Shown here: one piece after another, positions 6,584 through 37,813 of the stretch | Layout of the letters: each line of letters begins with the position of its first letter | How positions within the stretch are numbered: position 1 is the stretch's first letter | DNA from: an uncultured virus (IMG/VR IMGVR_UViG_3300033753_000202) | Lineage: Duplodnaviria > Heunggongvirae > Uroviricota > Caudoviricetes | Length of the DNA: 45,901 nt | IMG/VR virus record: IMGVR_UViG_3300033753_000202 | Direction: 5' to 3' (one strand) | Notes under the pieces: generated by a model | Seen by the model: the letters and a program-made list of their open reading frames with translations, nothing else | What the model was told of the DNA's origin: nothing | Database searches by the model: none | Position numbers and translations under genes: made by a program

Positions 6584-6618
6584 TAGGACACATTTTTCGG
6601 AATGTGTCCTACTTTTTT
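6584..6618 (+). terminator. Intrinsic terminator
   Basis: TAGGACACATT-tttcgg-AATGTGTCCTA then CTTTTTT. Confidence 0.75.
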
Positions 6619-6645
6619 GACTTAAAAATGGATTCCCTTTATAAT
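6617..6645 (+). promoter_or_regulatory. Near-consensus sigmaA promoter
   Basis: TTGACT-17 nt-TATAAT upstream of ORF 6692. Confidence 0.8.
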
Positions 6646-6691
6646 AACTAGGTTCTTTCGGATTGACTAGTTATTTTGAGGAGGGATTAAA

Positions 6692-7075
6692 GTGGCGAAG
6701 ACAGTGACTAGAGAAGAGTCCGATCTCAACATGTTGTTGACCTTGGATTACAGTCATATGACCGAACGTCAGTTGCAGGGGGTAATTTTCCGTCTCACGA
6801 CAGAACTTCAACGGGCTGAACAGCAGTTGAAGGAGGCACGTACTCAATACGTTCGAACGTTTGAGGAGTTCGACTCCAATGTGGATTTGCTCTGCGCTCA
6901 TCTGAATCATTATGACGCGCTTACTGAGTCGTATCGGGCGGAAGTGATGCGCATTCATACACGCTTAGAAGAACTCAAAGAGCGTCGCCGTCAGCTTGTG
7001 GCGGAATACCGTCAGCGCAAATTTGTCCAGCGCTTCTTGCGGCATTTTCAGCGGCAGGACGTCTCGATGTTGTAA
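6692..7075 (+). CDS. Small coiled-coil hypothetical protein
   Basis: GAGGAGG RBS, GTG start, heptad-like L/E/R/Q-rich sequence and its own promoter. Confidence 0.75.
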   Translation: MAKTVTREESDLNMLLTLDYSHMTERQLQGVIFRLTTELQRAEQQLKEARTQYVRTFEEFDSNVDLLCAHLNHYDALTESYRAEVMRIHTRLEELKERRRQLVAEYRQRKFVQRFLRHFQRQDVSML

Positions 7076-7189
7076 GTTGTCCGCTTTTTAAGCGCTCTCA
7101 TTCTTCGGTTTCTTGTCCTTTCTCTTTAAGGCGTGTTCTGCAACTTTGACTTTGCTTCTTCGCCATGAACTCGTCTTCTCCTATATAAG

Positions 7190-7212
7190 AAGCCCTTTTC
7201 CGGGGCTTTTTT
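7190..7212 (+). terminator. Intrinsic terminator
   Basis: AAGCCC...GGGCTT hairpin followed by a T-run. Confidence 0.55.
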
Positions 7213-7245: not shown

Positions 7246-7358
7246 TTGTCCGCACATTTATTCTCTTGTCGCTTCTTGTCCTTTTTCGGACATCCCCCTC
7301 TTTTATTTGGACACGATCTTCTTTGTTTGGACATGAGCTACTAAATTTTTACTCGTCC
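7246..7358. repeat. Phased TTGTCC / GGACA repeats; candidate parC centromere
   Basis: TTGTC(C/G) at 7246, 7266 and 7276; inverted GGACA at 7288, 7309 and 7329; TCGTCC at 7353; further TTGTCC at 7077, 7113 and 7426. Located directly upstream of parM. Confidence 0.55.
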
Positions 7359-7497: not shown

Positions 7498-8352
7498 ATG
7501 ACTATCAAAATTGGGTTGGACGTTGGGCGTAGTAATGTCAAGGTTTTTGATGGTCGCAAGTATTTGACTTTTCCTTCTATCGTCGGAGAGGCTCGGGAAC
7601 TGAAGCTGGATTATCATCAGGACGACCAAGGTTTTCGAGTGACTTTTCATGATCATGCTGAACCGGAGCATTGTTTCATCGGCACTTTGGCTCGGGATGA
7701 AAGTGAGTTTGCCCGCCAAATGCTCTTGCGGGAAAAAGCTACCCCGGATACGTATCGCTTGGCGATGACTGCACTTTCGCAGTACATCCCGGAGGAACAG
7801 ACGGAGGGGTATTTCGATGTCATCACGGGAGTTCCGGTGCGGGATCATGATCCAGTCACGAAACAGCGGCTGATTGATCTGCTTCAGCGGTCTTGTACAC
7901 TCACGGTTGACGGGGTACTTAAGCGAGTGCATGTTACTCGCGTTCGGGTTACGGTCGAGGGTGGTGGCGCATTTTGGGTATCCCCTAAAGACGGAACCTA
8001 TCGCCTTATCGATGCGGGCAGTCGTACCATCAACTACATCACCATGCGGGATCGCCGTTATGTTGATAAGGAATCGGGCACGCTCGACTTTGGTTTCGAC
8101 ACCAATAAATCGACGAATTTGCGTGAGTTGACGGCGGCGATTGTGGGTGAGGTCGGTAAGCGTTGGTACTCCCACGATCAAATAGGGGTGCTTGGGGGTA
8201 ATGCTGTCGCTCTTACGGCGGAGTTGAAAAGGTATTTCCCGAATGCTCACCTGTTTGATGCAGGAAAACGTGTTTCGACTACTGGTCAAATCATCGATCC
8301 TAACCTCTTTGCCAATGCGATTGGGTACTATACGATGGGAAGGAGCGTGTAG
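7498..8352 (+). CDS. parM: Actin-like plasmid segregation ATPase, ParM/StbA family
   Basis: Phosphate-1 'IGLDVGRSNVK', 'VITGVP', connect 'EGGGA', phosphate-2 'LIDAGSRTIN' and adenosine 'VLGGNA'. Confidence 0.9.
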   Translation: MTIKIGLDVGRSNVKVFDGRKYLTFPSIVGEARELKLDYHQDDQGFRVTFHDHAEPEHCFIGTLARDESEFARQMLLREKATPDTYRLAMTALSQYIPEEQTEGYFDVITGVPVRDHDPVTKQRLIDLLQRSCTLTVDGVLKRVHVTRVRVTVEGGGAFWVSPKDGTYRLIDAGSRTINYITMRDRRYVDKESGTLDFGFDTNKSTNLRELTAAIVGEVGKRWYSHDQIGVLGGNAVALTAELKRYFPNAHLFDAGKRVSTTGQIIDPNLFANAIGYYTMGRSV

Positions 8353-8354
8353 CG

Positions 8355-8669
8355 GTGGGTGAAAGTCAGTATAAAAGGTGCGGTGTGGTCTTCAACATGA
8401 AGAATCCCGCGCATGCGGAGTTGTATCATTGGTGCTGTTCGCAGACGTCAAACTTTAGCGATTTTGCTCGTTCGATTCTGTTTCATTATATGCGGCATGG
8501 CGCGTCATCCATCGCGGCAGTTGGGTCGTCTGCGTTTGTATCACGGTCGGAGGGCGGTTCGATGAACCTCCCCTTCGAATCCGCCACTCCGGTAGTGGAA
8601 GAGGTGGAATCCGATAGCACCCCGCATCGGGGGTATTCTGATGCTGAATCAATGGCGAGTATGTTTTAG
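8355..8669 (+). CDS. ParR-like ribbon-helix-helix adaptor
   Basis: Small gene directly after parM. N-terminal beta-helix-helix pattern (KRCGVVFNMKNPAHAELYHWC..NFSDFARSILFHYM) and a disordered acidic tail. Confidence 0.6.
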   Translation: MGESQYKRCGVVFNMKNPAHAELYHWCCSQTSNFSDFARSILFHYMRHGASSIAAVGSSAFVSRSEGGSMNLPFESATPVVEEVESDSTPHRGYSDAESMASMF

Positions 8670-8823
8670 CTTCGGAATGTTATATTTATCCTAGCACTTG
8701 GTTCATACAGTATCCGATAATACCGCCTATAACCATCCAGATAAAATTCATGTGGGATCACCCCTTTCTCTTTGTAGGATGTCCGAAAGCCTATTTAATA
8801 ATCAGCAAGGGAGTTGAGAAATT

Positions 8824-9705
8824 ATGGTAGCGGTAGTTGGTTATGCCACGCCCCGAGTTTATTTAGGGGTACGCTCCAATCCTTCTTTTCGGAAGGAGCT
8901 TATTTTTCCGGACTTTGAAATTTCAAAGAACACTTCCTGTTCTATGTCGTCGGAAAAACTCCAGTTTTCTAAGTCTGATCGCCCGACTCAGAAGGATTTG
9001 GCGGTTTTGCGGGATCTGAATCTGCTCGATGACCTGCAAGCGAACCCAGCTTCGGAAGGAAAGAACCGTTGGTTTTTCTCCTATCGGGTGAAGACGGACG
9101 CTCCAACGGTCAAACAGCCGGATGTCAAGGTGTACTCGCTCGCAGAAGATGGGGTGCAAGAAGGGCTTACGCCGGAACGCCGAGAGGCACTTAAGAAGGC
9201 GGGCTTCTTGGTTTTGCGAATCGCAACGGTTGCTTGCGTGGCGTACTTTATCGCACCGGGGATATCGTTGTTGTGTAATCTCTTTACCGACTTCTTCCAA
9301 CATGTCTTTTCGAGCGTTTCGTCTTCCTTTGCTCCGGCTTCGATTCCTTCTGATATGGTGACGACACCGTTGATGTCTGATCCGCTGTCGGTAAGTACGA
9401 TGGTTCCGGTCGATCCACTCTCGGGGGTAGCGGCTTCTTCGGCTACGATTCCGGGGAGTGCGGCGGCAGTTCCGGTGATGGCGCAAGCTCCGGCGGTGAT
9501 TGGTTCGTCTCCGGGCTGGCAAATGGTTATTCGTCAGGTACTTTCGCTCGTTGACGTCCTTATCAAGGGTATCATTATCTTCGCGGGGGTATCGTGGATG
9601 TTCGGCAACCGGACTCGCGCCCTTGAGACGTTGCTGAGTGGGGGTATTGGTTACATCATTGTGCGGCATCATGATGATATCGCTCGGTTCTTTGCGTCGC
9701 TGTGA
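8824..9705 (+). CDS. Membrane protein with a C-terminal TrbC/VirB2-like pilin-type hairpin
   Basis: The C-terminal 'LVDVLIKGIIIFAGVSWMFGNRTRALETLLSGGIGYIIVRH' has the two-helix VirB2-like pattern. It is preceded by a TM segment and a Ser/Pro/Ala linker. Confidence 0.55.
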   Translation: MVAVVGYATPRVYLGVRSNPSFRKELIFPDFEISKNTSCSMSSEKLQFSKSDRPTQKDLAVLRDLNLLDDLQANPASEGKNRWFFSYRVKTDAPTVKQPDVKVYSLAEDGVQEGLTPERREALKKAGFLVLRIATVACVAYFIAPGISLLCNLFTDFFQHVFSSVSSSFAPASIPSDMVTTPLMSDPLSVSTMVPVDPLSGVAASSATIPGSAAAVPVMAQAPAVIGSSPGWQMVIRQVLSLVDVLIKGIIIFAGVSWMFGNRTRALETLLSGGIGYIIVRHHDDIARFFASL

Positions 9706-9730
9706 TACGATTTTGTGGGGAGGTTTTGCG

Positions 9731-10189
9731 ATGGCGATTAAGCGTACTGGGGACTTTGGTAAGTCTTCTAACGTCAATTTGGACTTTGAAAATCTGGGGA
9801 TCTCGAATGACTTCTCATCTTCTTGGGGCGACGATGCTTGGGGCGGCTCGAATGATTGGGGAGCGCCCAAACGTCGTCGCAACAAGTCCTTCACTTTCGG
9901 GAAGCAGGAGGAGTCTTTTGAATCGGCTCCGTATGATGACTGGGAGTCAGATGAATCGTTTGTCAATTCGTTCGCCAACGGTTCTTGGGGTGCGCCGCGT
10001 TCTAGGTATGGAAAAGTGCGTACCCGGTCTGTACAGCCGCGACGCCCTTCGAGTTATGGCGGTTATGGGGGTTACGCTCGTCGCCCACATGGCGGTCGCG
10101 GGGGTACACTTGGGGACATCCTGCGGCGGGAGGGGCAAGAAATTCAGCGTATCTTTATGGATGTGTTAAACACCTTTAGAATTTGGTAG
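9731..10189 (+). CDS. Low-complexity G/S/R/W-rich, probably disordered protein
   Basis: GGGAGG RBS before the ATG at 9731; WG repeats, YGG and RGG tracts, and a C-terminal amphipathic helix. Confidence 0.65.
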   Translation: MAIKRTGDFGKSSNVNLDFENLGISNDFSSSWGDDAWGGSNDWGAPKRRRNKSFTFGKQEESFESAPYDDWESDESFVNSFANGSWGAPRSRYGKVRTRSVQPRRPSSYGGYGGYARRPHGGRGGTLGDILRREGQEIQRIFMDVLNTFRIW

Positions 10190-10201
10190 GAGGTGGGGTA
10201 A

Positions 10202-10528
10202 ATGATTCTCCGTATTAACGGGCAGGTTGCCGCCTATCTGGAGCCTGTAGTGGAGGTGGCAAAGGAAGGCGGAGGTGGGATAGCAGGTTTTGTTCAAGAT
10301 AAGTTCATGGACTACATTGTCATCCCGGTGGCAAATTGGTGTGTTAAAGTTCTACATTCCATTTGGGACTTTATTGTCGCCAATTCGGTCGACTTTATCG
10401 AGATTGGGATCATAGTCTGTGCTATCGGGATTATGGTATCGCCCTTAATTGGGAAATCTCCGGGGGTCTGGGCGGGGAGAGCTATGCTGATCGCGTTCGT
10501 GGGCGCTGTCCTGCGGATTCTGACATGA
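10202..10528 (+). CDS. Small membrane protein (2-3 TM)
   Basis: GGAGGTG RBS and hydrophobic helices; the stop overlaps the next ATG (ATGA). Confidence 0.75.
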   Translation: MILRINGQVAAYLEPVVEVAKEGGGGIAGFVQDKFMDYIVIPVANWCVKVLHSIWDFIVANSVDFIEIGIIVCAIGIMVSPLIGKSPGVWAGRAMLIAFVGAVLRILT

Positions 10529-13320
10529 ATGCGAAGCGTTTATTTACCTTCAAGCGAAGGGAACTCCCGTCCGAGGATGAGTTGCAACCGTCGTTTTTAG
10601 ACCAGCTCCCCGCCCCTTTGCGGTCTTTAATCGACCGGGTCTTGGTAAATGAGGAGTACGATTTTGCGATATATCAGATTATTCCTCATTCCTCGACTCT
10701 CAATTCATCCTCTCGGCGTTTTCAGTCTTCTCTGTATGAGTTGCTGAATTATAAAGTTGGTTTGTTCCCTTGGGAACGGGGTACTAAATTCTTTTCATCG
10801 TTCAAAGCGGATAATCTGTATTTGAATATTTCGCAGAATCCGTCTTTCTGGTGGATGATGGTGCTTGAAGGATTAGAGGGTCAGGAAGGGCAGTATAATC
10901 ATCGTATTGGCTTCTATGTAGCCCTTCCTGTTGACTTTGCGGATGCTTTTGAGATCAAGTTTTCCAACCATTTGCAGTGGTCTAAGTGTACCTTGAAAAA
11001 CCTGCAGGATGCGGAGGTTCGCGCTCAGGGGTACTCTTATCAGCATCCCCCTCTTGAAAATACTGACATGTTCCTGCTGAAGTATAAGCGAAACAGCATG
11101 TTCTCGCTTGAGTTTGACTATAAAGATCAGCATCTTCCTATCCGAGAAATGATGGGTTTGGTTAGGGAGCTTGCTCCCGGCGAGCAAATTCAGTTTATCG
11201 TAAAGACGGAGGCTGTTCCTCGTCGAAGATGGCAAAACATTACGGATTACACTTGGAAGGTATGGGATCGTGGTGATGTTCCTCCGAAGGAAGGGTTCGA
11301 TGCTCAGGCGTTGAAAGACCAGCTTATCAAATTCGGTAGTTATAGCTACACCTACACCATCAACATGGTCGAGGATATTTTGCGGGGTTTTCGCGGAGCA
11401 TTATTTTTCGGGGGTAGTGAAGATCAGCCGATGTATCGAGAGTACTCTTATGTCTCTGCAGAACGTCAAGCTCTGTTGGTCAATGGAGATCTTTCTCGTC
11501 GGACTAAGACAAAGCGTTTCTTACCAACTTTCAAAACGCATATCATCATTACGGTTACTTCTCCAGATAAGGTTAAGCGTTCCATGCTTGGTAGGTCGTT
11601 TGCTAACACTTTGTCGGAACTTAATGGGGATAACGCACTTGTCTTAAAGCAGGTTAAGAATAATTTGCGTGAGGAGCTTATCAAACTTCGGAAGTTTAAG
11701 ACTGAGTTCCTCAATCCAAATGTTATGAGTGTTGAGGAGGTTGGGAAGTTGGAACAACTGCCTACTGCGGAGTTACAAAGGGAGTTTGAGGATTGTTTGG
11801 AGTCTAATCGTAGGGTTGAAATTGATATTTCTGATGAACTGGCAGAAGATCACGGTTTGTTGGCGGGTACGGTTACTAATCGTGGTGAGGTCTTGGATGT
11901 GCATATTCAGCGTAAAAATTTGGATTTGGCATCAACTGCGCGTATTGTTGTTGGTTCACCGCGTATGGGGAAAGATCAGCACGTTATCAACCTTGTGGTT
12001 GAAGGGCGCATGAATCATCGTATGGGTGCGGTGGTCTTGGACGTCATTAACGAGCAGAATGGGCATCGGGGTATGGCGGATGCGATTCGGGATCATTTAC
12101 CACCGGAATACGTTATTGATCTTAATCTTATGGATTACAAGAACCCAATTTATCTTGGACTTGAACCGATTATCAAGCTCATTGACGATTCTCGCATCGC
12201 CGCTGACCGGGTGGCGGAGGAAATTTGCTCGTTCTTGCTTACGGACTCTGATGCGGATCGTTTGCAGACTTCCGAGTTTCTCCGCGAGGCTTCTAAGCTG
12301 GCGAATGCTGATATGTTAGCGATTCGACACATCTTTACTTCGAAGGGGTATCGGGATGAGCTTCGCATGAAAGCTCCGTCGACGTTGGATACGGATATTT
12401 GGGATGACTATGACGCGCTTTCGGAAAAGCAACAAGTTATGATTTATACGCCAATCATGCGTCGTTTGGGGCAAATTGTTAATAGCGAGTATTTGAAACC
12501 GATTTTTTGTCAGCTTCCGAATCCGGAACTTGATTTGTATAAATTCATTGACGAAGGGAAGGTCATTATCTTCCGCATGAAGACTGGGGTAATGCCCCGT
12601 CGGGTTATCGAAATTCTGTGTTATTGGATCGTTCTTGTAACTTTCCTTATTAAATTAGCGCAGGACGGTAAGTCTCGTAACAATGAAGGGACGTTCCTCA
12701 TTTTGAACGAACCTCATCAGTATATGACTAAGGAATTGGCACATTTTATTCAACGTATTTTTGCAGAAGGACCGAAATACCGGTTCATTCCGACGCTCAT
12801 TTTCCACAATTTTAAGCAGTTCCGCGACGTACCGGGATTTGTGGATATTATGAAATCGGCTTCGGTTAACTGGCATTTGTTCCGTAATACGAATGAGGAA
12901 GTTTATAAGGAATTGTTTCCTTACTTGTCACGCACTTTTACTTCTCCACAAGAAGCCTTTGAAGCCACGAAGAAGTTTCAGTATATCGGTATTTGGCTCA
13001 ATCAGGATGGTGAGTATTACGATCCGTTCGTTGCAGATTCCCTTCCGTTGGTTTCGGAACGATATCCGACGCGGGACAATTCGCATCTGACTCTTGAGCA
13101 CTCGAAGCGTTTTGGTCGACCTATTGAAGAGGTTATGGAAAGCATTCGTGAGCGAAATCGTTATGCAAAATCTCTCGCTGGGGAGTCTTCGGAGCCGGAT
13201 GAGGAAGGGGTATCGCCATCTGGTAGTAAGTCTTCTGCATCGAACTCTGGTAAGAATTCCAGAGTTACGAACTCAAAGACCGTTCGTAGTTCTCTTGCTA
13301 AGTCAAGAGTTGACGAATAA
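10525..13320 (+). CDS. VirD4/TraD/HerA-FtsK-superfamily P-loop ATPase (~931 aa)
   Basis: Start at ATG 10525, coupled to the upstream gene. Walker A-like 'IVVGSPRMGKD', 'AVVLDV', 'IDEGKVIIF', Walker B-like 'FLILNEPHQY' and 'EGPKYRFIPTLIFHNFKQF' (cf. e.RKyg....la.Q...Ql). Confidence 0.7.
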   Translation: MNAKRLFTFKRRELPSEDELQPSFLDQLPAPLRSLIDRVLVNEEYDFAIYQIIPHSSTLNSSSRRFQSSLYELLNYKVGLFPWERGTKFFSSFKADNLYLNISQNPSFWWMMVLEGLEGQEGQYNHRIGFYVALPVDFADAFEIKFSNHLQWSKCTLKNLQDAEVRAQGYSYQHPPLENTDMFLLKYKRNSMFSLEFDYKDQHLPIREMMGLVRELAPGEQIQFIVKTEAVPRRRWQNITDYTWKVWDRGDVPPKEGFDAQALKDQLIKFGSYSYTYTINMVEDILRGFRGALFFGGSEDQPMYREYSYVSAERQALLVNGDLSRRTKTKRFLPTFKTHIIITVTSPDKVKRSMLGRSFANTLSELNGDNALVLKQVKNNLREELIKLRKFKTEFLNPNVMSVEEVGKLEQLPTAELQREFEDCLESNRRVEIDISDELAEDHGLLAGTVTNRGEVLDVHIQRKNLDLASTARIVVGSPRMGKDQHVINLVVEGRMNHRMGAVVLDVINEQNGHRGMADAIRDHLPPEYVIDLNLMDYKNPIYLGLEPIIKLIDDSRIAADRVAEEICSFLLTDSDADRLQTSEFLREASKLANADMLAIRHIFTSKGYRDELRMKAPSTLDTDIWDDYDALSEKQQVMIYTPIMRRLGQIVNSEYLKPIFCQLPNPELDLYKFIDEGKVIIFRMKTGVMPRRVIEILCYWIVLVTFLIKLAQDGKSRNNEGTFLILNEPHQYMTKELAHFIQRIFAEGPKYRFIPTLIFHNFKQFRDVPGFVDIMKSASVNWHLFRNTNEEVYKELFPYLSRTFTSPQEAFEATKKFQYIGIWLNQDGEYYDPFVADSLPLVSERYPTRDNSHLTLEHSKRFGRPIEEVMESIRERNRYAKSLAGESSEPDEEGVSPSGSKSSASNSGKNSRVTNSKTVRSSLAKSRVDE

Positions 13321-13344
13321 ATTACTTTTTAGGGAGGAATCTAA

Positions 13345-13515
13345 ATGAGCTTCTCTGTGAAAGATCTGTTGGTCTATTCGGAAGTTGTGGTGATTCGTTC
13401 TAAAGCCGCTTCTGAGTATCTTACCCCGGAAGGGTTGGCATTGATTCCGATTTTGGAGGCGCAAGTTTTGCAACGTTCCGTAAGGGAGCAAGCTCCGGTA
13501 GCGCAAGCAAACTAA
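13345..13515 (+). CDS. 56-aa hypothetical protein (below the ORF-track cutoff)
   Basis: GGGAGG RBS, MSFSVKDLLVYSEVVVIRSKAASEYLTPEGLALIPILEAQVLQRSVREQAPVAQAN*, followed by a terminator. Confidence 0.65.
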   Translation: MSFSVKDLLVYSEVVVIRSKAASEYLTPEGLALIPILEAQVLQRSVREQAPVAQAN

Positions 13516-13536
13516 TACTTTGTCACTCTACTTCCG

Positions 13537-13575
13537 AAAGGTTCGATCTATTACTGGTCGAACCTTTTCTTTTTG
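13537..13575 (+). terminator. Intrinsic terminator
   Basis: AAAGGTTCGATC-loop-GGTCGAACCTTT then a T-rich tract. Confidence 0.75.
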
Positions 13576-13644
13576 TCTTTATAAGGTAGTATCCCCTGTG
13601 CAGACATGAGGGTATATTGAGTAAATACGCAAAGGAGTCTTCGT

Positions 13645-13860
13645 ATGAATTTGTTGCATAGGAAAAGAAGTCTTCGTGCTTTGGTGCGGACGTTTATGGT
13701 CGTGTTAGCGTACCTGTTGACGCATCGTTATTTACCCCTAGAAGGGTGGCAGGGGGTATTGATCTCGGTCTTGATCGTTTTTGCACTGGATTTATTGGCA
13801 GTGCGAGTAATGAAGCTCTCGGGGGTACGAGGTTACTTTTACGAGAAACCAGATGAGTAG
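13645..13860 (+). CDS. Small two-TM membrane protein
   Basis: AAGGAG RBS and two hydrophobic helices. Confidence 0.65.
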   Translation: MNLLHRKRSLRALVRTFMVVLAYLLTHRYLPLEGWQGVLISVLIVFALDLLAVRVMKLSGVRGYFYEKPDE

Positions 13861-13868
13861 AAAGGGGA

Positions 13869-14069
13869 TTGATGAACATGGCGGCATTGTGGGAGTTTCT
13901 TACTTCTCCACTTTCTCGAATTTTCACCAGCTTGTATGCGTCTTTTTATAACGATTTGGTCGAGATCTTTCCTCCTGAGTTGCTTCCGTCGCCGGATTCG
14001 ACGGTATCAGTTCTTGGAATATCAATTCCAACTTTCTTGGTTTATTTTTGGTTTGCAGGTGACGATTGA
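13869..14069 (+). CDS. Small hydrophobic hypothetical protein
   Basis: AAAGGGG RBS; fills the gap between neighbouring genes; C-terminal hydrophobic segment. Confidence 0.5.
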   Translation: MMNMAALWEFLTSPLSRIFTSLYASFYNDLVEIFPPELLPSPDSTVSVLGISIPTFLVYFWFAGDD

Positions 14070-14084
14070 TGTTGGAGGTTGCTT

Positions 14085-14876
14085 ATGGAGCATATTTCAC
14101 TTCATCAGGACTTGGACTTGTTGTCCAGAATAAAGCAGGGTTTGGATAGGAACGAATTTTTCAATTTGTACCAACCCATTTATAACAATGACTCAACCCT
14201 TTCTTTAGCCGGGGTGGAGTGTTTGACACGTTGGAACTCTAAGGACTCGCTTCTTTCTGCGGCTGATTATATCCCGGTTATTGAGAACTCCATTCTTAAT
14301 TCTTACTTTTTCTTCTATACGCTGAATTTGGCGTTGAGTCAGTTGAAGGAGTATCTTTCTCCCTCTTTTAAGTTGTCGGTGAATGTTCCTTTCAGTTTGG
14401 TCTTTTTGCCGGAGTTTAGTTATAAGGTATTACATACGCTTCAGACGCAGGGAGTAGATCCTTGCTTCTTGATGTTGGAGGTTACGGAGACGCACATCCT
14501 CCCGAGGGGGTACATTCATCAACATCCTGAGATTTTGGTAGTTGCTGAAGGAGTAACGCTTATTATTGATGATTTTGGTTCAGGTTCGACCTCCCTCATG
14601 TATTTACACGATAGTAACTTTTCAGAGTTAAAGTTGGATCAAGCTTTCTTAAGCCCGTTTTATTTTGGTTCAACGCGCAACTTTGCTATTCTTCATAGTA
14701 TTGTGAAGCTTTGTAAGAAGTTGAATATTCTTACTACCCTTGAGGGTGTGGAGTCTGCGGAGCATCTCGAATTGGCACGGCGACTTGGGGTAGATAAACT
14801 GCAGGGGTACTATTTGTCGAAGCCTTTAACTTTAGATAATTTGACTGCTTTATTGATTAAGGAGGGTTCGAAGTGA
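14085..14876 (+). CDS. Stand-alone EAL-domain c-di-GMP phosphodiesterase
   Basis: YQPI, 'GVECLTRW' (ExL), 'LSVNVP', 'LEVTET', 'IDDFGSGSTSL', 'LKLDQAF', 'EGVE' and 'QGYYLSKP'. Confidence 0.9.
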   Translation: MEHISLHQDLDLLSRIKQGLDRNEFFNLYQPIYNNDSTLSLAGVECLTRWNSKDSLLSAADYIPVIENSILNSYFFFYTLNLALSQLKEYLSPSFKLSVNVPFSLVFLPEFSYKVLHTLQTQGVDPCFLMLEVTETHILPRGYIHQHPEILVVAEGVTLIIDDFGSGSTSLMYLHDSNFSELKLDQAFLSPFYFGSTRNFAILHSIVKLCKKLNILTTLEGVESAEHLELARRLGVDKLQGYYLSKPLTLDNLTALLIKEGSK

Positions 14877-20064: not shown

Positions 20065-20322
20065 GTGGTATGTGTGGTTAAGACTCGAATTACCCTGACG
20101 GATCGGCTGAACGAGTTATTGGAGGAAGCGGATAAGCATTCCGAGCAGGAAGGGGGTACTTACCGCCCCCAGAAAGAAGTTTCCACGGAGTTCTCGGACA
20201 GTATGTCGTCGCTTCTAGAAGCTCAATTAACGCCTAAAGTTCCGTCGCGAAAACCTTGGTTTTCGCGTTTCTTTAGACGTAAGAAAGGAGGAATTTCGGA
20301 TGAGTCCACAGTACAGCCTTAA
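20065..20322 (+). CDS. Small hypothetical protein with a basic/aromatic C-terminal helix
   Basis: Fills the gap before the giant gene; 'KPWFSRFFRRKK' near the C-terminus. Confidence 0.55.
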   Translation: MVCVVKTRITLTDRLNELLEEADKHSEQEGGTYRPQKEVSTEFSDSMSSLLEAQLTPKVPSRKPWFSRFFRRKKGGISDESTVQP

Positions 20323-23300
20323 GACCCGTATCTTCGCATACTTGATGGTGTTTGTCATGTTCTTCTCGTCCTTCTTTCAAATGGCGGACATCGCTCATGC
20401 GGACGTTACGACGGGTAGTACGGGAAGTATTTCTTCAACCGGTGCTACCACCGGGTTGAGTGGTGGTATTAAGCACATCGACTACCTGACATTCCGGGTC
20501 GGTGTTGTGCGGGACGAGGGTCTTCGCAACCCGCAGGATGGGGTATATGTGGAAATGCGTAAGACTTTTTCGCATCGCTTCCCGAAGAATAAAAATGGGA
20601 TTTTCATGGTTGCCGATGCCGTGAAAGGGTTGTATAGCAACGGTAATTATGAGATCGCGTGGTATAACTCTGGGCAGAAGAAGCTGGAGACGGCGAATTC
20701 ACCGGAGGCTAAGGCACGCGTGGTCTTTCTACAAACGTCTACGTGGGGTACGCCTTACAACACCGGACGCGATTCATCCCTTAACGGGTGGTCGTTTACG
20801 GGGAATGCAAATTATGCGGAGTTAGTAAAAAGTGGAGAGTGGAAGAAAAAGGCGGATGAAACCACACGAGAGCATGCTCTTGCGATCTGGTCGTATATCC
20901 TTGCTCCTACTGGTGGGAACTCGGATATGCGGACTTATGATATTAAGAATCGCGCTGATAAGTTCATTTCCCCGAATGCAAGCAAGAAATATACTGATAT
21001 GACTGAGGAGGAGAAAGAGGAAGTTTTTCGCGGTTTCCTCGGTCTACTTTTTGCTGGTCGCGCTCTGACTAATCCGGGAACCCCCGAACGGCAAGAGTGG
21101 GATAGTGCCATCGAGGATGCGATGCGCTACGGTAATTTGGAGGGCGGCGGTCTTCCGGTTTCCATCGTCATTGATACTGCCCTCACGGTAAGTTACACTG
21201 GGGGTAAGATGACGATTATTCCAAGTTTGGATTACTTCATGTTTTATACGTCGATCAACTCTCGTTGGGATTTGTACAACACGACGAAGTTGGATGATTC
21301 GGTTGCCGGAAATACGCATAAGATGCTGGACTACATCGTTGATAAGACGATTGAGGATGAAGGGTCTAACCAGTATCGCATTTCAAACGCTTACGATGAA
21401 AATAACCCCTTCTCTCACGGTTCATCGGCTATCGCGTATCCGGGTATGTATTACAGTACTTCCGCTAAGTCCTCGGGTACTTGGAAGCCAACTAGTTCTA
21501 ATGTTGGCGCGATGGACGCTCTGATTTTTGGTACGAATCCAAATGGTTCCGGGAACATCCTTGGTTTTATCGCGATAAGTGCAAAAGCTCTTGATAAGCC
21601 CAAGGAGGATATTACGTTAAAGCCAGATTGTCCGGAAGATCCTTCTAAGTGTCCACCTCCGAAAGGTGCAAAGGTTCGTTTGACTATTCCTTCTGAGTAT
21701 AAGGCACCTTATCGGGTAGGGCGTTCGGAAACGATTGGGGTACCTACTCCATTGGAGTTGACGCACGATCCAAGTGCGGTTGAAATGATCGCGGCGTGGA
21801 AAGAGCAGTTTGTCAATAATCAGCAAATGGTTATTGTTAAGATTACGGAAGCTCGTCGGTCTAGTACACCGAAACCTGATGGTAAGGCTAACCTTGATCG
21901 AGGTGCAGGTAACGGGTTTGGGTTGGACTCGAATTGGTTCATTGAGTGGCTTGAAGGGAAACATGTCCTTAAAACACAAGATATCGCAACAATCAACGAT
22001 ACCATCGAGCCTAACAAAACTCGTCGTTTTGATTATGTGCTGGCTTTGACTTTCTACTATACGGATCGTACTGGACAAAAGCAAGAGTACACATATTACA
22101 CGAACAGTGACTACGCTGAGTATATCCGCGACCCTGACCCACCAAAGGTTGATCCAATCATTTACACGTCTTCACCTTCTGCTTATGCGGAGTTTAAGGA
22201 TAATCAACCTGACCAAGAACAGTGGGACGCTATGTCTGGTGTACCTTCCAACAAGCGCTTGTATGTAGGTGTTGGGGGTAGTGAGTTTATCGTCGATATT
22301 CAACTTGAATATAAGGAAGATGTCGATTCGGTATGGCGGACGTATCGCTCCTACTTCACGGGTGGGGTACCTGATGAGTTTAAGGAAGGGGATACGGCAA
22401 AACCGTTTACCCTTGGTGGTTATACGGTAGACCCACATAATGGCGGTGTGTACACTAAGACTTGGACTGGTACCATTCCGAATAAAGCGAAGCCGAAGAC
22501 TCAGACTGGCTCTGGTAACCTTACGGTTGTAGTTCCGGCTGAGCCTGATATGACGGAGTATAATCGGGCAAAGCAGGAAGCTCAGGCGTATATCAACGAG
22601 GTTAATGCACATACGCAGACTCATACCTCTGCTAGTGATAAGGTCACTCGTTCAAAGACGGGTTGGAACGCACGGATTACTACAGATAATCCGAATCCAC
22701 CGAAAGATGCGTCTAACTCGGGAAGTTGTTGGAAACCACTACCTAAAGGCGGAAGTGCACCTTGTTCCGTAACGGTTACTACGAATCCTTCCCCTGATGG
22801 GAACTTTACGATTACGGTGACTTTTGAAGTTCCAGCGCACTATTTGTGCGGACCGAACTGTCTGCATATTCTTCCGGGTGTTGAAGACACTTGGAAGCAA
22901 AAAGTAACCTTCGACTATATGAAGATTTTGAAGGTCGAGGTTTATAAGATTCAGGAAGGTCGCATTACCCAAGTGAAGAATCTGCTTGGGGATAACAATG
23001 ACACCTTGAAGGCAACGATTCGTCAAGGTGATCCGACGATCTTCTACAACATCGCAGAGCAGAATGCGAATGGTGATGATGTCGCGGCGCAGTCTAGTAA
23101 GCATGGACGCATCCGGTATTCACTTGACTGGAATCAGCATGACACCGTTGTGTACAATGAAGGACCGAGGTCGAATAAGTCCGATGGTATGGGAGACAAC
23201 GGTAACCCGAACTCACCTACTAAGGGTGGGCATACGAATAAGTGGGCGACTGGTATTCTCTATAACAACACGAAGTACACCACGGAGGAGAACTACCATC

Positions 23301-26300
23301 GCAGTCGAGGCGGGGTAAATACAGGTTACTCCTCATTTGCGGATGACGTCGACGTTAAAACGCCTGAATGGAAGAAATTCGATGCGCGTCGGAGAGCCAA
23401 GAACGTCGCAACCATCATTTCTGACATGTTGATTTTGCAAACGTCCTCCGGCGACCAAGCGGTTATTTACTTTGAGAAGGATTCCACGCCGAAGGAAGCT
23501 CAACAGCAGTTCGATCCTGTTAAGGCAACCAAAGAGGAAATGTGGGATAACAACCCGAACTCGGCGGCTAAGTGGGAAGTGAACCAAATTTATGTTGGTT
23601 CCTACAATGGTAAATTCATGCTGACGGGTACTGGTGCGAATAATAACAAGAAGTATTGGGGTCTGGATCAGACTACTGGTACGGTTTTGAATAACGCACC
23701 AACGGGTGAACGTCCTATCGCCACTAAGTTTGACAGTAATGGAGCCGGGGTAAATGCTTCGCGCACTCGTCCAGCGCGTCCGAGCAAGCTCTATATTTGG
23801 AACAGTGCTGATATTATTCCGACTACCCAAAACGGTTTGTATACGACAGGTGACGCCGATGTCTTTTATAAGCGAATTTTGAGCTGGGAGTCGAAGAATA
23901 CGGAGCAGGAACTCAAAATTTCGACTTATAGAGCAAAAGCGCAACCGGACTACGGTAATCAACTTGGGGTAGTTGTGAAAGCTCCATATTCGGACATGCA
24001 CTCGAAGGTCAATGATGTGGTCATTCATACGCCTGTCGCGGTCGAAAATGCGATGATTATCTCGCTCCCGGATTTGCGTGACCAGCGTGTTGAACTTCCT
24101 CCGGGTAGCGCGGCGAATCTTATCGCAGAACGTGCGGCGTTGGAAGTCTGTCCTCTTGACCCAGAGCTTTGTGAGTTCCGGGTGTTGAACTGTCGTTATC
24201 ATTTGGACGAAGAGTTGGCACGTTTCGATTTCACCAATACTAATGGTACTCAACTCATGAACTTGACGAAAGGTGCATATATCAACACCTTCCGCACCGG
24301 AACGGTAAGTATCGTTTCAGGTTCGAATGGTCTGGGTTCTGGTAATGCGATGCGAATCACTGGGCAACGTCTCTCCTTCAACCTTGCGGATTTGGGGGTA
24401 ACGAACCTCAATAAAGACGTTGTTTCGGTTGAGATGGACATTAAGATTCCTTCGGTAAGTAGTAAGGGTCGTATGTTGGTTTCCTTTGACGGTTACACCT
24501 TGTGGATTCCGGCGAATCAGAAGTATCTCTCACTCTCCACAGGTAAGGGTGCGGATATTACCTTTGGGGATGTACCGCATGATAATACCGTCTTCAAACT
24601 TCGCGTTGATATGAGTTTAGGTAGCGCGAAGGATACGCGAGTTTGGGTAAATGGTTCTGAGCGCACGGCGACGTTGAAGGCTGAACCGAACCCTCTGACG
24701 AACCGGATTGGGTCGCGTCTCCATATCGGTACTTGGGGCGCAAACGAAAACTATGAAGCGAACTTCACGTTCGATAACCTCAAGATCGTGAAGAAGGGCG
24801 GCACCGATCATCATACCGAGGCTTGCTATATCTATACGCAGGCTCATGATCAGCAGTACACACATACTCACACCACTGAATGTTGGGGTGTAGTGAACGG
24901 GGTAACGACGCTGATCTGCAACAACTATCCGCTCAATACCCTGTCGCAGAACAACGTTCACGTTCATGACGCAAACTGTATCCATTATGCGTATATCAAT
25001 TCCATCATTCAAAAAGCGGTGGAAGAGCATAATGCGAACTTGACGCGTGAGTGGACGTTCAACTACACGGGTAACAGTCAAGTCTTCACGGCTCCGCGTT
25101 CTGGTACTTATCTCCTTGAGGTTTGGGGCGCTCAGGGTGGTGGTTCGCGTGGCGGTAAGGGTGGTTACTCGAAAGGTAAGATTAATCTGTCTGCAGGTCA
25201 AAAGCTGTACGTCTATGTTGGGGGTACCACTAGCGATAAAAACGGTGGCTGGAACGGCGGTGGTAGCACTGGCGGTGTGGCTTACGGTGGTGGCGGCGGT
25301 ACCGACATGAGGCTCGGTGGAACTGGACTCGAACATCGGATTATCGTTGCTGGCGGCGGCGGTGGCGCTCAAGCGGGCTACGGTGGTTACGGTGGCGGTA
25401 TGTCTGGCGGTGACGGGGAAGACCGTTACGGTGATCCGGGTCGTGGCGGTACGCAAAGCAGTGGTGGTATTGGTGGCGGACAGTGGGGTTCGCTTGGTAA
25501 AGGCGGTAATGGTACAACGGGTTCCGACGGAAACTATGGCGGTGCTGGCGGCGGTGGTTACTACGGTGGAGGCGGTGCAAACTCCGACCATTCGTTGGTT
25601 GACGACTCTGGCGGCGGTGGCGGCTCTGGTTATATTGGTGGGGTAACCGAAGGGCAAACCATCGCAGGCAACCAAACGATGCCCGCTCCGAGTGGTGGAA
25701 CGCAAACGGGGCATTCTGGTCACGGTTTTGCCCGAATCATCTTGGAAGGTGGCTCCAGTGGCGGTACAGAAGTTCCAGCTACCGATCCGGTGAAGAACTT
25801 CAGCTATACGGGCAGTGTCCAAACCTACACGGCTCCGGCAACGGGTAAGTATCAACTGGAGGTTTGGGGCGCTCAAGGTGGCGGCTCGGCGGCTGGTAAG
25901 GGTGGTTATGCGAAGGGTGAAATTTACCTGACGAAGGGACAAACCATCCATATCTATGTTGGCGGTCAAGGTTCTCGCGGTACGGGCACGAATGGTGTCC
26001 TTGCCGGAGGTTGGAACGGTGGCGGTGATGTCGTATCACCGTATGCGGACGGTAACAACTCGTCGGGCGGTGGCGCTACGGATATTCGCGTTGGGGGTAC
26101 GAACCTCTCTAATCGTGTGATCGTTGCGGGCGGCGGTGGCGGTGTTGTAACGCCGATGACAGCTACTCCGCATGGCGGCGGTACTTCAGGTTTGGCGGGT
26201 ACGCATAACTCGACGGTGACAGGCACTGGCGGTACGCAAACGGGCGGCGGCACAGGCAACTATGGAAATGGTGAGCTTGGAAAAGGTGCTAACGGTTCGA

Positions 26301-30389: not shown

Positions 30390-30390
30390 G

Positions 30391-30966: not shown

Positions 30967-30989
30967 TTCGGGTTTGGAGGGAAAAGTAC

Positions 30990-31907: not shown

Positions 31908-31925
31908 TAAGTAGGGGGTTTAGGC

Positions 31926-32510: not shown

Positions 32511-32513
32511 CGT

Positions 32514-33308: not shown

Positions 33309-33311
33309 CCG

Positions 33312-37435: not shown

Positions 37436-37546
37436 AGCTCTATCGCTTTGCCCTTTATTTATGCCTGTTGTACTGCTTCGAGATAGGAAATTGTGTCTTA
37501 TTTGTGTACGCAAACTTCTTCTTTTAGAAAAATAGAGCTTTTTCAG

Positions 37547-37577
37547 AAAACAACTCGACCTACGCCGAGTTGTTTTT
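37547..37577 (+). terminator. Intrinsic terminator ending the Tad assembly operon
   Basis: AAAACAACTCG-acctacgc-CGAGTTGTTTT. Confidence 0.7.
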
Positions 37578-37661
37578 GTATTTAAGCGATTGGTTCGGTT
37601 TTCTATCGTGAGTAAGTATGTCCATCATTGAAGGCTTCGCTTTCTACGATAGAGATCTTAC

Positions 37662-37778: not shown

Positions 37779-37813
37779 AAAATCCAAAATAAAATGACGG
37801 AGGGATAAGAACA

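What the first reader, a model, noticed from the sequence alone, without database searches (positions are those of the whole stretch)
8824..13515. Minimal VirB2-like + small membrane protein + VirD4/HerA-like ATPase module beside ParM, with no relaxase or other T4SS genes
Seen: a five-gene run closed by a terminator at 13537. The ATPase has Walker A ending GKD rather than GK[ST] and Walker B NE rather than DE. The VirB2-like hairpin is fused to a ~230-aa N-terminal extension. No VirB4, VirB6 or relaxase is visible in the window. Inference: not classical conjugation; possibly a membrane-bound DNA translocation or tethering device working with ParM, for example to place the element in a daughter cell or forespore.
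Basis: partly seen in the sequence, partly recalled or inferred. Interest (0 to 1): 0.7.

Follow-up and report, generated by a model that had tools for sequence, protein, structure and literature searches.

The report
Phage VirB4-type cassette beside ParM
This is one more copy of an accessory gene cassette already noted in the model Bacillus phages SPP1 and Tsamsa-like phages: a conjugation-type (VirB4-like) ATPase with a pilin-like and a small membrane protein, next to an actin-like partition pair, whose job is still unknown.

Summary
The five-gene run, its terminator, the GKD/NE motifs and the long N-terminal extension on the pilin-like protein are all real. The ATPase is not VirD4/HerA-like. 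Both of its domains fold like VirB4: the C-terminal domain gives Z 26.1 to T. pseudethanolicus VirB4, and the N-terminal domain alone gives Z 17.2 to TrwK/VirB4, with the next hit at 9.4.

The unit is larger than reported. It runs ParM, a ParR-like adaptor, a VirB2-like protein, a disordered protein, a small 2-TM protein, the VirB4-like ATPase and a 56-aa ORF. It is homologous to SPP1 genes 31/31.1/31.2/32 and to the "plasmid-like" region of Tsamsa-type phages. Both are described in print without a tested function. This scan has met the same cassette three times before on other DNA.

What I add:
- The adaptor family is the one that follows ParM in phages generally.
- ParM linkage is recurrent but facultative (6 of 21 loci).
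- In relatives the small membrane protein often carries an M23 wall hydrolase.
- GKD+NE marks a single clade inside a family that is otherwise GK[ST]+DE.

No relaxase, VirB6 or coupling protein was found in the window, and the rest of the ≥273-kb element could not be searched. Function is inferred: a minimal T4SS-core-like envelope machine. The forespore idea remains untested.

The parts
7302..7341 (.). Two tandem 20-nt direct repeats (TTTRTTTGGACAYGA core) in the 286-bp non-coding stretch upstream of ParM. This may be a parC-like operator or centromere.
   Evidence: Short tandem repeats also lie just upstream of ParM in L022, L032, L034, L007 and L024. Genome-wide motif counts are not above chance, so this part is weak.
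7498..8352 (+). ParM-type actin-like protein (284 aa)
   Evidence: Pfam ALP_N E 1.9e-21, 77.3 bits against a cut-off of 26.3. phrog_691 'partition protein' E 1.6e-30. 55 phage records hold a homologue.
8355..8669 (+). ParR-like adaptor, a homologue of SPP1 gp31 (104 aa). It has a ribbon-helix-helix-like sequence pattern and starts 3 nt after the ParM stop.
   Evidence: jackhmmer finds it in 18 of 21 distinct cassette loci, SPP1 gp31 included. A profile of the family hits the ORF right after ParM in Flasso, PVJ1, Lietuvens, Tsamsa, BcoS-136, Basilisk and D6E. The nearest named Atlas cluster is Plasmid_stab_B/ParR at 0.85, which is a lead only. Pfam and PDB sequence searches give no RHH hit.
8824..9705 (+). 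VirB2/TrbC-like membrane protein (293 aa), a homologue of SPP1 gp31.1. It has a clade-specific N-terminal extension made of a roughly 124-aa soluble part, a hydrophobic segment at 125-155 and an S/P/A-rich linker.
   Evidence: BLASTP to gp31.1: 45% identity over 44 aa, E 8e-12. phrog_5422 E 2.8e-9. 13 of 15 family members hit Pfam TrbC/VirB2 (best E 3.9e-7); the window's own member scores E 0.017, 15.8 bits, below the cut-off of 27.9. Hydrophobic segments are and conservation of the extension.
9731..10189 (+). 152-aa G/S/W/D/R-rich, probably disordered protein. It has its own RBS and two in-frame stops before the next gene. It was seen only in this window.
   Evidence: jackhmmer found no relative in 29 loci. 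No family hit in NCBIfam or PADLOC, nor in Pfam or PHROGs, where it was scanned as the longer ORF 9638-10189.
10202..10528 (+). Small membrane protein (108 aa) with a conserved MILRING N-terminus and a C-terminal hydrophobic hairpin at 54-107. It belongs to the family of SPP1 gp31.2 and occupies the VirB3 position. In relatives it carries an inserted M23 peptidase domain.
   Evidence: jackhmmer finds it in 18 of 21 loci. The family HMM hits SPP1 gp31.2 at 3.3e-5 in a small database, although pairwise BLAST is not significant (E 0.34). 6 of 15 members carry Peptidase_M23, best E 2.9e-26. ATGA overlap with the ATPase.
10525..13320 (+). VirB4-like ATPase (931 aa), a homologue of SPP1 gp32. Walker A is GSPRMGKD (477-484) and Walker B is LNEP (727-730). 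The C-terminal roughly 45 residues are disordered.
   Evidence: phrog_5156 E 1.4e-137. 27% identity to gp32 over 855 columns, E 8e-77. AF2 model pLDDT 83. Foldseek's top hits are full-length TrwK/VirB4. C-terminal domain Z 26.1 to VirB4 4ag5. N-terminal domain Z 17.2 to TrwK 7o42_A, 271 residues aligned at 3.9 Å, next hit 9.4.
13345..13515 (+). 56-aa ORF of unknown function that closes the run
   Evidence: No relative and no family hit. That it codes for a protein is not shown.
13536..13568 (+). Intrinsic-terminator-like hairpin (13 pairs, 5 of them G-C) followed by a T-run

Best explanation
Window 7498-13568 is one operon-like unit made of two modules.

Module 1 is a ParM actin-like protein with its small DNA-binding adaptor, preceded by short repeats. 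It has the layout of a plasmid-type ParMRC partition system.

Module 2 is a minimal type-IV-secretion core in the canonical VirB2-VirB3-VirB4 gene order:
- a pilin-like protein;
- a small two-helix membrane protein, translationally coupled to the ATPase;
- a soluble VirB4-like ATPase.
In many relatives a peptidoglycan-cutting M23 domain is also present.

The unit is the local copy of the accessory cassette known as genes 31, 31.1, 31.2 and 32 in phage SPP1 and as gp11-17 in Tsamsa/Thrax phages.

Inferred mechanism: the ATPase hexamer docks on the membrane through the small membrane protein and uses ATP to extract or assemble the pilin-like protein. Alternatively it pushes a macromolecule through a small conduit across the membrane and wall of the infected or lysogenic cell. 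It does this without a relaxase, so it is not conjugation in the classical sense.

The ParM pair segregates the element's DNA when it is episomal and is a frequent but dispensable neighbour. The adaptor, which stays with the cassette even where ParM is absent, probably binds DNA next to the operon, either as its regulator or as a DNA handle.

Shown: homology, folds, gene order and distribution. Inferred: membrane docking, the cargo and the role of the adaptor.
For: Homology to the SPP1 cassette:
- gp32: E 8e-77.
- gp31.1: E 8e-12.
- gp31 and gp31.2: by profile.
- Same gene order and the same 4-nt overlap of 31.2 and 32.

VirB4 identity:
- Foldseek ranks 1-11 are TrwK/VirB4 chains over the full length.
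- C-terminal domain: Z 26.1, rmsd 3.9, 343 residues aligned to 4ag5.
- N-terminal domain alone against 48,161 chains: TrwK Z 17.2, with all other hits at 9.4 or lower.

Pilin-like protein: 13 of 15 family members hit Pfam TrbC/VirB2 and 9 of 15 hit T4SS_pilin.

Wall hydrolase:
- An M23 domain sits inside the small membrane protein in 6 of 15 members.
- A separate M23 gene lies upstream of the ATPase in MMB025, in Tsamsa, in BcoS-136 and in an A. dauci plasmid.

Conservation:
- The pilin-like gene is present in 21 of 21 distinct loci, the adaptor in 18 of 21 and the small TM gene in 18 of 21.
- 204 representative clusters match at E<=1e-30.

The catalytic Glu and the P-loop Lys are invariant.

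The adaptor belongs to the family that follows ParM in other phages.

In print: SPP1 gp32 matches TrwB, VirB4 and FtsK by HHpred, gp31.1 and gp31.2 are membrane proteins, and a 'trans-membrane translocon' is proposed (PMC6316719 section 3.4, passages read). For Thrax phages, ParM, an RHH protein and a T4SS protein are described as a plasmid-like region (PMC9703825, passages read).
Against: - No experiment exists. In SPP1, ORFs 31.2 and 32 are non-essential (PMC6316719).
- The ATPase matches no Pfam, NCBIfam or PADLOC model. A 32-sequence profile finds no PDB chain by sequence.
- The window's pilin-like member is below Pfam's cut-off.
- The small membrane protein has no VirB3 match. Its BLAST to gp31.2 is not significant.
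- No fused VirB3-VirB4-like form was seen among 21 ATPase representatives with N-terminal extensions.
- The RHH fold of the adaptor has no Pfam or PDB support.
- Walker A GKD and Walker B NE depart from the catalytic consensus, so ATP turnover is not assured.
- VirB6, VirB8 and a coupling protein, which are needed by all studied T4SSs (recalled knowledge), were not found in the window.
- The M23 domain in relatives has no signal peptide upstream, so its route to the wall is unexplained.
Confidence: 0.55

Rival explanations
1. An integrated DNA-placement machine. The adaptor marks the element's DNA, ParM filaments push it to a pole or septum, and the membrane-bound VirB4-like motor tethers or pumps it. 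A copy then ends up in the forespore or the daughter cell.
For: - ParM and the cassette are neighbours wherever I saw both in one record, in two different gene orders. The records are MMB025, D6E, the seven Basilisk-like records seen in both lists, Tsamsa, BcoS-136 and 4 Paenibacillaceae prophages.
- The adaptor stays with the cassette without ParM.
- Named hosts are almost all endospore formers. In phages 103 of 104 records are from such hosts by the first word of the organism name (my own reading of the genera); the exception is one Microcystis phage record that I did not inspect. The plasmid hits are Bacillus 20, Clostridium 19, Alicyclobacillus 1 and Laceyella 1. The genomes are Paenibacillus, Cohnella, Neobacillus and Desulfotomaculum.
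Against: - 15 of 21 cassette loci lack ParM.
- ParM plus adaptor also occurs alone.
- VirB4 proteins are not known to move DNA themselves (recalled knowledge).
- The host pattern is confounded by phylogeny and by the reach of a single-query tblastn.
- No sporulation-type promoter was tested here.
- SPP1 is a virulent phage.
Confidence: 0.15
2. An envelope-remodelling or exclusion module. The membrane proteins, the M23 hydrolase and the ATPase alter the wall or membrane of the infected or lysogenic cell. The effect would be to block superinfecting phages or incoming DNA, or to assist lysis or release, with no macromolecule transported.
For: - In 15 of 18 loci scanned the cassette lies within 3.5 kb downstream of holin and/or endolysin genes. 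In at least 5 loci it lies next to the integrase at the prophage end, a typical place for lysogenic-conversion genes. SPP1 has the same position after gene 26, its holin.
- M23 domains are frequent.
- The cassette is non-essential in SPP1.
Against: - A 900-aa two-domain VirB4-type motor with an invariant catalytic Glu is costly for simple exclusion.
- The pilin-like partner and the VirB2-B3-B4 order point to an assembly or translocation machine.
- No PADLOC defence model matches any of the 7 proteins tested.
Confidence: 0.15
3. A decaying remnant of a conjugative plasmid's T4SS, picked up by phages and no longer functional.
For: - Only three T4SS-like genes remain.
- The Walker motifs are non-canonical in the window's clade.
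- The Tyrovirus authors suggest an origin from a conjugative plasmid (PMC9703825).
Against: - ORFs are intact in all 21 loci.
- There are 38 invariant columns across 32 ATPases sharing 37-80% identity.
- 204 clusters match at E<=1e-30.
- GKD+NE is fixed in a whole clade rather than scattered.
- The gene order is kept from SPP1 to Paenibacillus prophages.
Confidence: 0.04
4. A VirD4/HerA-type DNA pump, as labelled by the first reader. It would act on DNA in the cytoplasm, for example with a nuclease as in HerA-based defence systems.
For: - The C-terminal domain also aligns well with TrwB (Z 24.5), the DndH C-domain (25.1) and HerA (24.1).
- One distant family member hits Pfam TrwB_AAD_bind at 1.7e-10.
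Against: - The N-terminal 430 residues match the VirB4 N-domain and nothing else comparably.
- There is no N-terminal membrane anchor of the T4CP kind.
- There is no nuclease or Sir2-type partner in the run.
- The partners are membrane proteins.
Confidence: 0.04

Closest known systems
Bacillus phage SPP1 genes 31, 31.1, 31.2 and 32 (Godinho et al. 2018, PMC6316719; passages read)
   Same: All four proteins are homologous and in the same order, with the same 4-nt overlap of the small membrane gene and the ATPase gene. The GKD/NE motifs are the same, and a non-coding gap separates gene 31 from 31.1.
   Different: - The window adds ParM upstream, a roughly 225-aa extension on the pilin-like protein and an extra disordered protein.
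- The ATPase is 95 aa longer.
- The context is replication genes of a ≥273-kb uncultured element, not the post-lysis early region of a 44-kb virulent phage.
Tsamsa/Thrax 'Tyrovirus' region gp11-gp18 (PMC9703825; passages read), and the same layout in vB_BcoS-136 and D6E
   Same: ParM is followed by an RHH adaptor of the same family, then small ORFs, then a large ATPase of the same family. The A1 profile gives E about 1e-23 for Tsamsa gp257.
   Different: - Tsamsa-type ATPases keep the canonical GKT and DE.
- They have a separate M23 gene.
- They are followed by a gene annotated 'replication initiation by nicking'. The window has neither of these two genes in the run.
VirB2-VirB3-VirB4 core of type IV secretion systems (R388 TrwL/TrwM/TrwK; PDB 7O42, 7O43, 8RTD)
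   Same: The gene order is pilin, small membrane protein, ATPase. The ATPase has the two-domain VirB4 fold, and the family matches the TrbC/VirB2 Pfam model.
   Different: - No VirB6, VirB8, VirB10, VirB11, coupling protein or relaxase is in the run.
- No sequence-model match to VirB4 or VirB3.
- Walker A has Asp where VirB4 has Ser/Thr, and Walker B has Asn where VirB4 has Asp.
- The setting is a monoderm host and a phage.
ParMRC plasmid partition (plasmid R1 ParM/ParR/parC; recalled knowledge)
   Same: An actin-like ATPase gene is followed directly by a small adaptor gene, with short repeats upstream.
   Different: - The adaptor's fold and its DNA binding are not shown.
- The same adaptor family persists next to the VirB4-like cassette in loci without ParM.

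Membership tests
VirB4 (T4SS ATPase) | C-terminal FtsK/HerA-superfamily P-loop domain of the VirB4 type | tested here: met
   VIA-align gives Z 26.1, rmsd 3.9 and 343 residues aligned to VirB4 of T. pseudethanolicus (4ag5_A). TrwB, DndH-C and HerA lie within 2 Z units.
VirB4 (T4SS ATPase) | VirB4-specific N-terminal domain | tested here: met
   The N-terminal domain was folded alone (pLDDT 67) and aligned to 48,161 chains. TrwK/VirB4 7o42_A gives Z 17.2 with 271 residues aligned at 3.9 Å. The next hit scores 9.4 and the rest 6.4 or lower.
VirB4 (T4SS ATPase) | Canonical Walker A GxxGxGK[ST] and Walker B hhhhDE | tested here: not met
   The window has GSPRMGKD and LNEP. Other branches of the same family keep GK[ST]+DE: 101 of the 150 best representatives.
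VirB4 (T4SS ATPase) | Match to curated VirB4 sequence models (Pfam CagE_TrbE_VirB/AAA_10, NCBIfam) | tested here: not met
   No Pfam hit at E<=10 other than a spurious one at 0.66. No NCBIfam hit at E<=1.
VirB4 (T4SS ATPase) | Encoded with the other T4SS core genes (VirB6, VirB8, coupling protein, relaxase) | tested here: not met
   None was hit among the 41 plus-strand ORFs scanned with Pfam and PHROGs or the 10 scanned with NCBIfam. The rest of the ≥273-kb element is not held and could not be searched.
VirB3-like partner | Small membrane protein encoded directly upstream of VirB4, with sequence similarity to VirB3 | tested here: inconclusive
   Position and ATGA coupling are met. None of the 15 family members hits a VirB3 model in Pfam at E<=10.
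VirB2/TrbC pilin | Match to Pfam TrbC (PF04956) or T4SS_pilin | tested here: inconclusive
   The window's member scores E 0.017 and 15.8 bits against a cut-off of 27.9. In the family, 13 of 15 members match TrbC (best 3.9e-7) and 9 of 15 match T4SS_pilin.
VirB2/TrbC pilin | Leader with a hydrophobic segment, followed by two hydrophobic helices | tested here: met
   The alignment shows a leader ending in A-A or A-x-A and then a conserved hairpin with the motif FAGVxWMFGNRTxA. Cleavage of the leader is not shown.
SPP1 gene 31-32 cassette | Homologues of gp31, gp31.1, gp31.2 and gp32 in that order | tested here: met
   The gp31.2 link rests on profiles only; pairwise E is 0.34.
ParMRC partition system | Actin-like ParM ATPase | tested here: met
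   Pfam ALP_N scores 77.3 bits against a cut-off of 26.3.
ParMRC partition system | Ribbon-helix-helix ParR adaptor directly downstream | tested here: inconclusive
   Position is met. The family equals the post-ParM ORFs of 7 other phages. No Pfam or PDB RHH hit. The Atlas's nearest named cluster is ParR/StbB at 0.85, below the trust level.
ParMRC partition system | Array of centromere repeats (parC) upstream | tested here: inconclusive
   There are only two tandem 20-nt repeats. Similar short repeats occur in 5 other loci, with no chance control.
VirD4 / type IV coupling protein | N-terminal transmembrane anchor followed by the nucleotide-binding and all-alpha domains | tested here: not met
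   There is no hydrophobic segment before residue 693. The N-terminal 430 residues fold like the VirB4 N-domain. The C-terminal domain does resemble TrwB (Z 24.5).
HerA | N-terminal HAS-barrel domain | tested here: inconclusive
   HerA chains align only through the C-terminal domain in most rows. No HerA chain is among the 50 rows for the N-terminal domain alone, which does not exclude it.

The most novel reading that the evidence does not exclude
The gp31-like adaptor is a shared DNA handle that couples the element's double-stranded genome both to ParM filaments and to a relaxase-free VirB4/pilin/wall-hydrolase conduit. Together they would form a phage-borne machine that delivers the whole genome across a septum or cell boundary, into the forespore or a neighbouring cell, without a virion. 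The GKD/NE clade would then be a natural charge-swapped P-loop (the carboxylate moved from Walker B to Walker A) that still hydrolyses ATP.
Probability: 0.1. Interest if true: 0.85.

Novelty: new member of a known kind. Interest (0 to 1): 0.42.

Why it matters
The cassette sits in textbook phages (SPP1, SPO1, SP-10, CP-51, phage G) and in hundreds of prophage lineages of Bacillales, yet it has no known job.

If it is a working three- or four-gene T4SS core, it would be the smallest known. It would also give a tractable system, SPP1 in B. subtilis, for asking what VirB4 and a pilin-like protein can do alone in a monoderm.

The paired Walker A T-to-D and Walker B D-to-N change, fixed in one clade, is a ready-made natural experiment on Mg2+ coordination in P-loop motors.

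For this window itself the finding is mostly a correct annotation. It is not a new system.

Tried and rejected
Searches that gave nothing or could not run:
- Whole-genome search: no genome is held. The 273,468-bp and 228,941-bp metagenome contigs that carry the identical gene are not searchable.
- Single-protein scan of viral contigs found nothing. The alignment-based scan worked.
- Megablast of window 8000-14000 against phages gave no match.
- The A1 profile against PDB sequences gave 0 hits. The same held for the pilin-like profile.
- PADLOC and NCBIfam gave no hit for the cassette proteins.
- The 'genome' look-up of earlier notes returned nothing.
- The TadA-like ATPase and the DnaB-like helicase have almost no phage relatives, so the nature of the element (jumbo phage, phage-plasmid or plasmid) stays open.

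Tests without a usable answer:
- Complex prediction of the ATPase N-domain with the small membrane protein returned no verdict (score 0.00, controls not run). It says nothing either way.
- Rosetta-stone test: 21 ATPase representatives with N-terminal extensions of 45 or more residues have no hydrophobic segment there and no match to the small-TM, pilin-like or adaptor profiles.
- ParM remnants in ParM-less loci: none found. Those loci have an unrelated conserved ~100-aa ORF (7 loci) or a divergent HTH gene (4 loci) instead.
- The repeat motif of 7302-7341 is not enriched elsewhere in the window.

Error and omission:
- One search gave wrong motif columns because of my own --trim indexing error. 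It was redone correctly.
- I did not scan for sporulation sigma-factor promoters. The consensus sequences would have come from memory and are too short for a fair test.

Literature: searches found no paper that assigns a tested function to the cassette.
Full report
**What is there**

All long ORFs of the 45.9-kb window lie on the plus strand.

The finding's five ORFs are real:
- 8824-9705 (293 aa)
- 9731-10189 (152 aa)
- 10202-10528 (108 aa)
- 10525-13320 (931 aa)
- 13345-13515 (56 aa)

They are closed by a 13-pair hairpin with a T-run at 13536-13568. The 152-aa ORF has its own RBS and ends with two in-frame stops before the next gene. The small membrane gene overlaps the ATPase gene by ATGA.

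Upstream, and belonging to the same unit, are a ParM-type actin-like gene (7498-8352; Pfam ALP_N, E 1.9e-21) and a 104-aa gene that starts 3 nt after it (8355-8669). A terminator-like hairpin at 7187-7211 and a 286-bp non-coding stretch with two tandem 20-nt repeats (7302-7341) precede ParM.

**The motifs**

Walker A reads GSPRMGKD and Walker B reads LNEP. In an alignment of 32 relatives (37-80% identical to the window's protein), G482, K483, D484, N728, E729 and P730 are invariant.

**What the ATPase is**

It matches phrog_5156 over its full length (E 1.4e-137) but no Pfam, NCBIfam or PADLOC model.

An AlphaFold2 model built on the 32-sequence alignment has mean pLDDT 83. Three structure comparisons followed:
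- Foldseek against the PDB puts chains of TrwK/VirB4 of plasmid R388 at ranks 1-11, aligned over the whole length.
- VIA-align gives Z 26.1 for residues 435-849 against VirB4 of Thermoanaerobacter pseudethanolicus. DndH-C (25.1), TrwB (24.5) and HerA (24.1) follow closely, so the C-terminal domain alone does not choose between these families.
- I therefore folded residues 1-432 alone (pLDDT 67) and aligned the model to 48,161 representative chains without a Foldseek pre-filter. TrwK/VirB4 scores Z 17.2 (271 residues, 3.9 Å), the next chain 9.4, and all others 6.4 or lower.

Both domains are of the VirB4 type. The protein has no hydrophobic segment before residue 693, so it is not built like a coupling protein. 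The label 'VirD4/HerA-like' is right only at superfamily level, and the statement that no VirB4 is visible is wrong.

**The cassette is known**

tblastn finds the ATPase in 104 phage records. They include SPP1 gene 32, SPO1 gp27.4, SP-10, CP-51, GBK2, Basilisk, Slash/Stahl, D6E and, closest, Alicyclobacillus phage MMB025 (35.7% identity). BFVD adds phages JL and G.

Comparison with SPP1:
- The ATPase aligns with gp32 at 27% identity over 855 columns (E 8e-77). SPP1 also has GAGKD and NEP.
- The last 44 residues of the 293-aa protein are 45% identical to gp31.1 (E 8e-12).
- By iterated profile search over 29 fetched loci plus the window, the 104-aa protein groups with SPP1 gp31. The 293-aa protein finds a homologue in every locus. 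The 108-aa protein finds one in 18 of 21 distinct loci.
- Its link to gp31.2 rests on a profile hit (3.3e-5 in a small database), because the pairwise BLAST is not significant.

The SPP1 re-annotation paper (PMC6316719, section 3.4 and table passages read) makes these points:
- gp31.1 and gp31.2 have transmembrane segments.
- gp32 matches TrwB, VirB4 and FtsK by HHpred.
- ORFs 31.2 and 32 are non-essential.
[quoted passage not shown] My six literature searches found no tested function. This scan's own notes hold three earlier reports of the same cassette on other genomes, with the same closest relative. I had reached the SPP1 link and the VirB4 fold before I read them.

**The partners**

Of 15 members of the pilin-like family, 13 match Pfam TrbC/VirB2 (best E 3.9e-7) and 9 match T4SS_pilin. 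The window's member scores 15.8 bits, below the cut-off of 27.9.

The family has a leader with a hydrophobic stretch ending in A-A or A-x-A, followed by a conserved hairpin.

The window's version carries a long extension: about 124 soluble residues, a hydrophobic segment at 125-155 and an S/P/A-rich linker. The extension is conserved in P0264 (316 aa, 41% identity over 97% of the query) and P0265 (366 aa). P0265 comes from a 178,399-bp contig of the same length as the contig that carries a 60%-identical ATPase. It is therefore a real feature of this clade.

The small membrane protein has a conserved MILRING start and a C-terminal hydrophobic hairpin. In 6 of 15 relatives a complete M23 peptidase domain is inserted between the two (best E 2.9e-26). 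MMB025, Tsamsa, vB_BcoS-136 and an Alicyclobacillus dauci plasmid have a separate M23 gene upstream of the ATPase.

The order pilin-like, small membrane protein, ATPase mirrors VirB2-VirB3-VirB4. However, no VirB3 model matches, and I found no fused form.

**ParM and the adaptor**

After merging four pairs of (near-)identical loci, 21 distinct loci have an intact ATPase and upstream DNA. ParM lies directly upstream of the adaptor in 6 of them: the window, MMB025 (where it is split), L005, L007, L022 and L024.

ParM homologues occur in 55 phage records. Wherever I saw both genes in one record they are close together:
- D6E
- MMB025
- seven Basilisk-like records, in a different order, with ParM about 1.4-1.8 kb beyond the ATPase
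- Tsamsa and vB_BcoS-136, whose 929-aa and 953-aa ATPases match the family profile at about 1e-23

The two lists of ATPase hits show at most 90 of the 104 rows, and fewer once overlaps are counted, so this is not a full census.

Flasso, Lietuvens and PVJ1 have ParM plus the small gene but no cassette within 6 kb.

A profile of the 104-aa family hits the ORF that follows ParM in all of these phages, and also SPP1 gp31. The cassette's first gene is therefore the ParM-associated adaptor, and it stays with the cassette where ParM is absent.

Its ribbon-helix-helix nature rests on the sequence pattern and on weak Atlas leads to ParR/StbB, TacA, CcdA and RHH_1. Pfam and PDB give nothing.

ParM-less loci show no ParM remnant.

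**Context**

In 15 of 18 loci scanned, holin and/or endolysin genes lie within 3.5 kb upstream. An integrase or the prophage end follows in several. SPP1 has the same position.

The window differs. The unit sits among replication-type genes:
- topoisomerase II fragment
- DnaB-like helicase
- NAD-ligase
- primase zinc finger

The element is at least 273 kb long, and its other proteins have almost no phage relatives.

None of the 41 plasmids with the ATPase is typed conjugative.

**The motif swap**

Among the 150 best representatives of the family (out of 204 at E<=1e-30, 826 at E<=1e-10 and 3099 at E<=1e-3), the states are as follows:

| Walker A + Walker B | Representatives |
|---|---|
| GK[ST] + DE | 101 |
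| GKD + NE | 19 |
| GKD + DE | 2 |
| gapped at one motif | 23 |
| odd | 5 |

None has GK[ST] with NE.

In a FastTree of 117 full-length sequences, the GKD+NE sequences form one clade of 17 tips, the window included (support 0.996). The clade is nested among canonical members.

SPP1 and Basilisk share the derived state. D6E, Tsamsa and BcoS-136 have the canonical one.

This is one evolutionary event, so it is not statistical covariation. Its fixation, together with the invariant Glu and Lys, argues for a maintained site with an altered chemistry rather than a dead one. That the Asp replaces the Ser/Thr ligand of Mg2+ while the Asn replaces the Walker B Asp is my inference.

**Verdict**

The finding is a correct sighting of a known, functionally untested phage cassette. 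It needs a better label (VirB4-like) and wider borders (ParM and the adaptor included). It has some clade-specific oddities: the extended pilin-like protein, the extra disordered protein, the lack of an M23 domain, and the very large host element.

The most likely working model is a minimal T4SS-core-like envelope machine beside a ParMR partition pair. The forespore or daughter-cell model is possible and untested.

Noticed in passing
window 29004-42088: A possible Tad/Flp-like pilus or secretion module. It comprises an M23 peptidase (29004-30389), a SAF/CpaB-like protein (30990-31907) and a 720-aa TadA/VirB11-like T2SSE ATPase (33312-35474; Pfam T2SSE 1.2e-6, and NCBIfam TadA-family 1e-11, far below its cut-off). 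A 653-aa ORF with no hit follows, then five ORFs of 143-179 aa (38606-41059). Only one phage record has a relative of the ATPase.
   Followed up: partly
window 20300-28891: A single 2863-aa ORF with an ALK/LTK-type glycine-rich domain at residues 1848-2068 (Pfam E 3.4e-58). It also matches several PHROGs of unknown function.
   Followed up: no
window 14079-14876: A stand-alone EAL (c-di-GMP phosphodiesterase) domain protein lies just downstream of the cassette on this mobile element (Pfam E 2.3e-43).
   Followed up: no
window 43066-45899: Thioredoxin, a DsbD-type membrane protein and a CAP-domain protein lie in a row, which suggests secreted disulfide-bonded products.
   Followed up: no
window 6584-7211: A near-consensus promoter-like site (TTGACT-17-TATAAT, 6617-6645) drives a 127-aa coiled-coil ORF (6692-7075) that is bracketed by two terminator-like hairpins.
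   Followed up: no
L032 (phage D6E) 7824-8030 and 8261-8473: Two unannotated ORFs between ParM and the ATPase both match the adaptor profile (7.8e-20 and 7.1e-16), so the adaptor is duplicated there.
   Followed up: partly
L037 (phage Tsamsa) 11664-12434: A gene annotated 'replication initiation by nicking' directly follows the VirB4-like ATPase. It is the only relaxase-like neighbour I saw in any cassette locus.
   Followed up: no
L005 13690-14214 and L021 13745-14263: AgrB-like genes lie just downstream of the cassette in two Paenibacillaceae prophages, with a LytTR gene as well in L021. L024 has a CoiA-like nuclease and a sigma-70 region 4 protein at the same place.
   Followed up: no
L004, L006, L008, L009, L017, L019, L027 (ORF just upstream of the adaptor): A conserved ~100-aa protein (start ...KKMAGEVS...) with a basic low-complexity tail takes ParM's place in seven ParM-less loci. 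It has no Pfam hit.
   Followed up: partly
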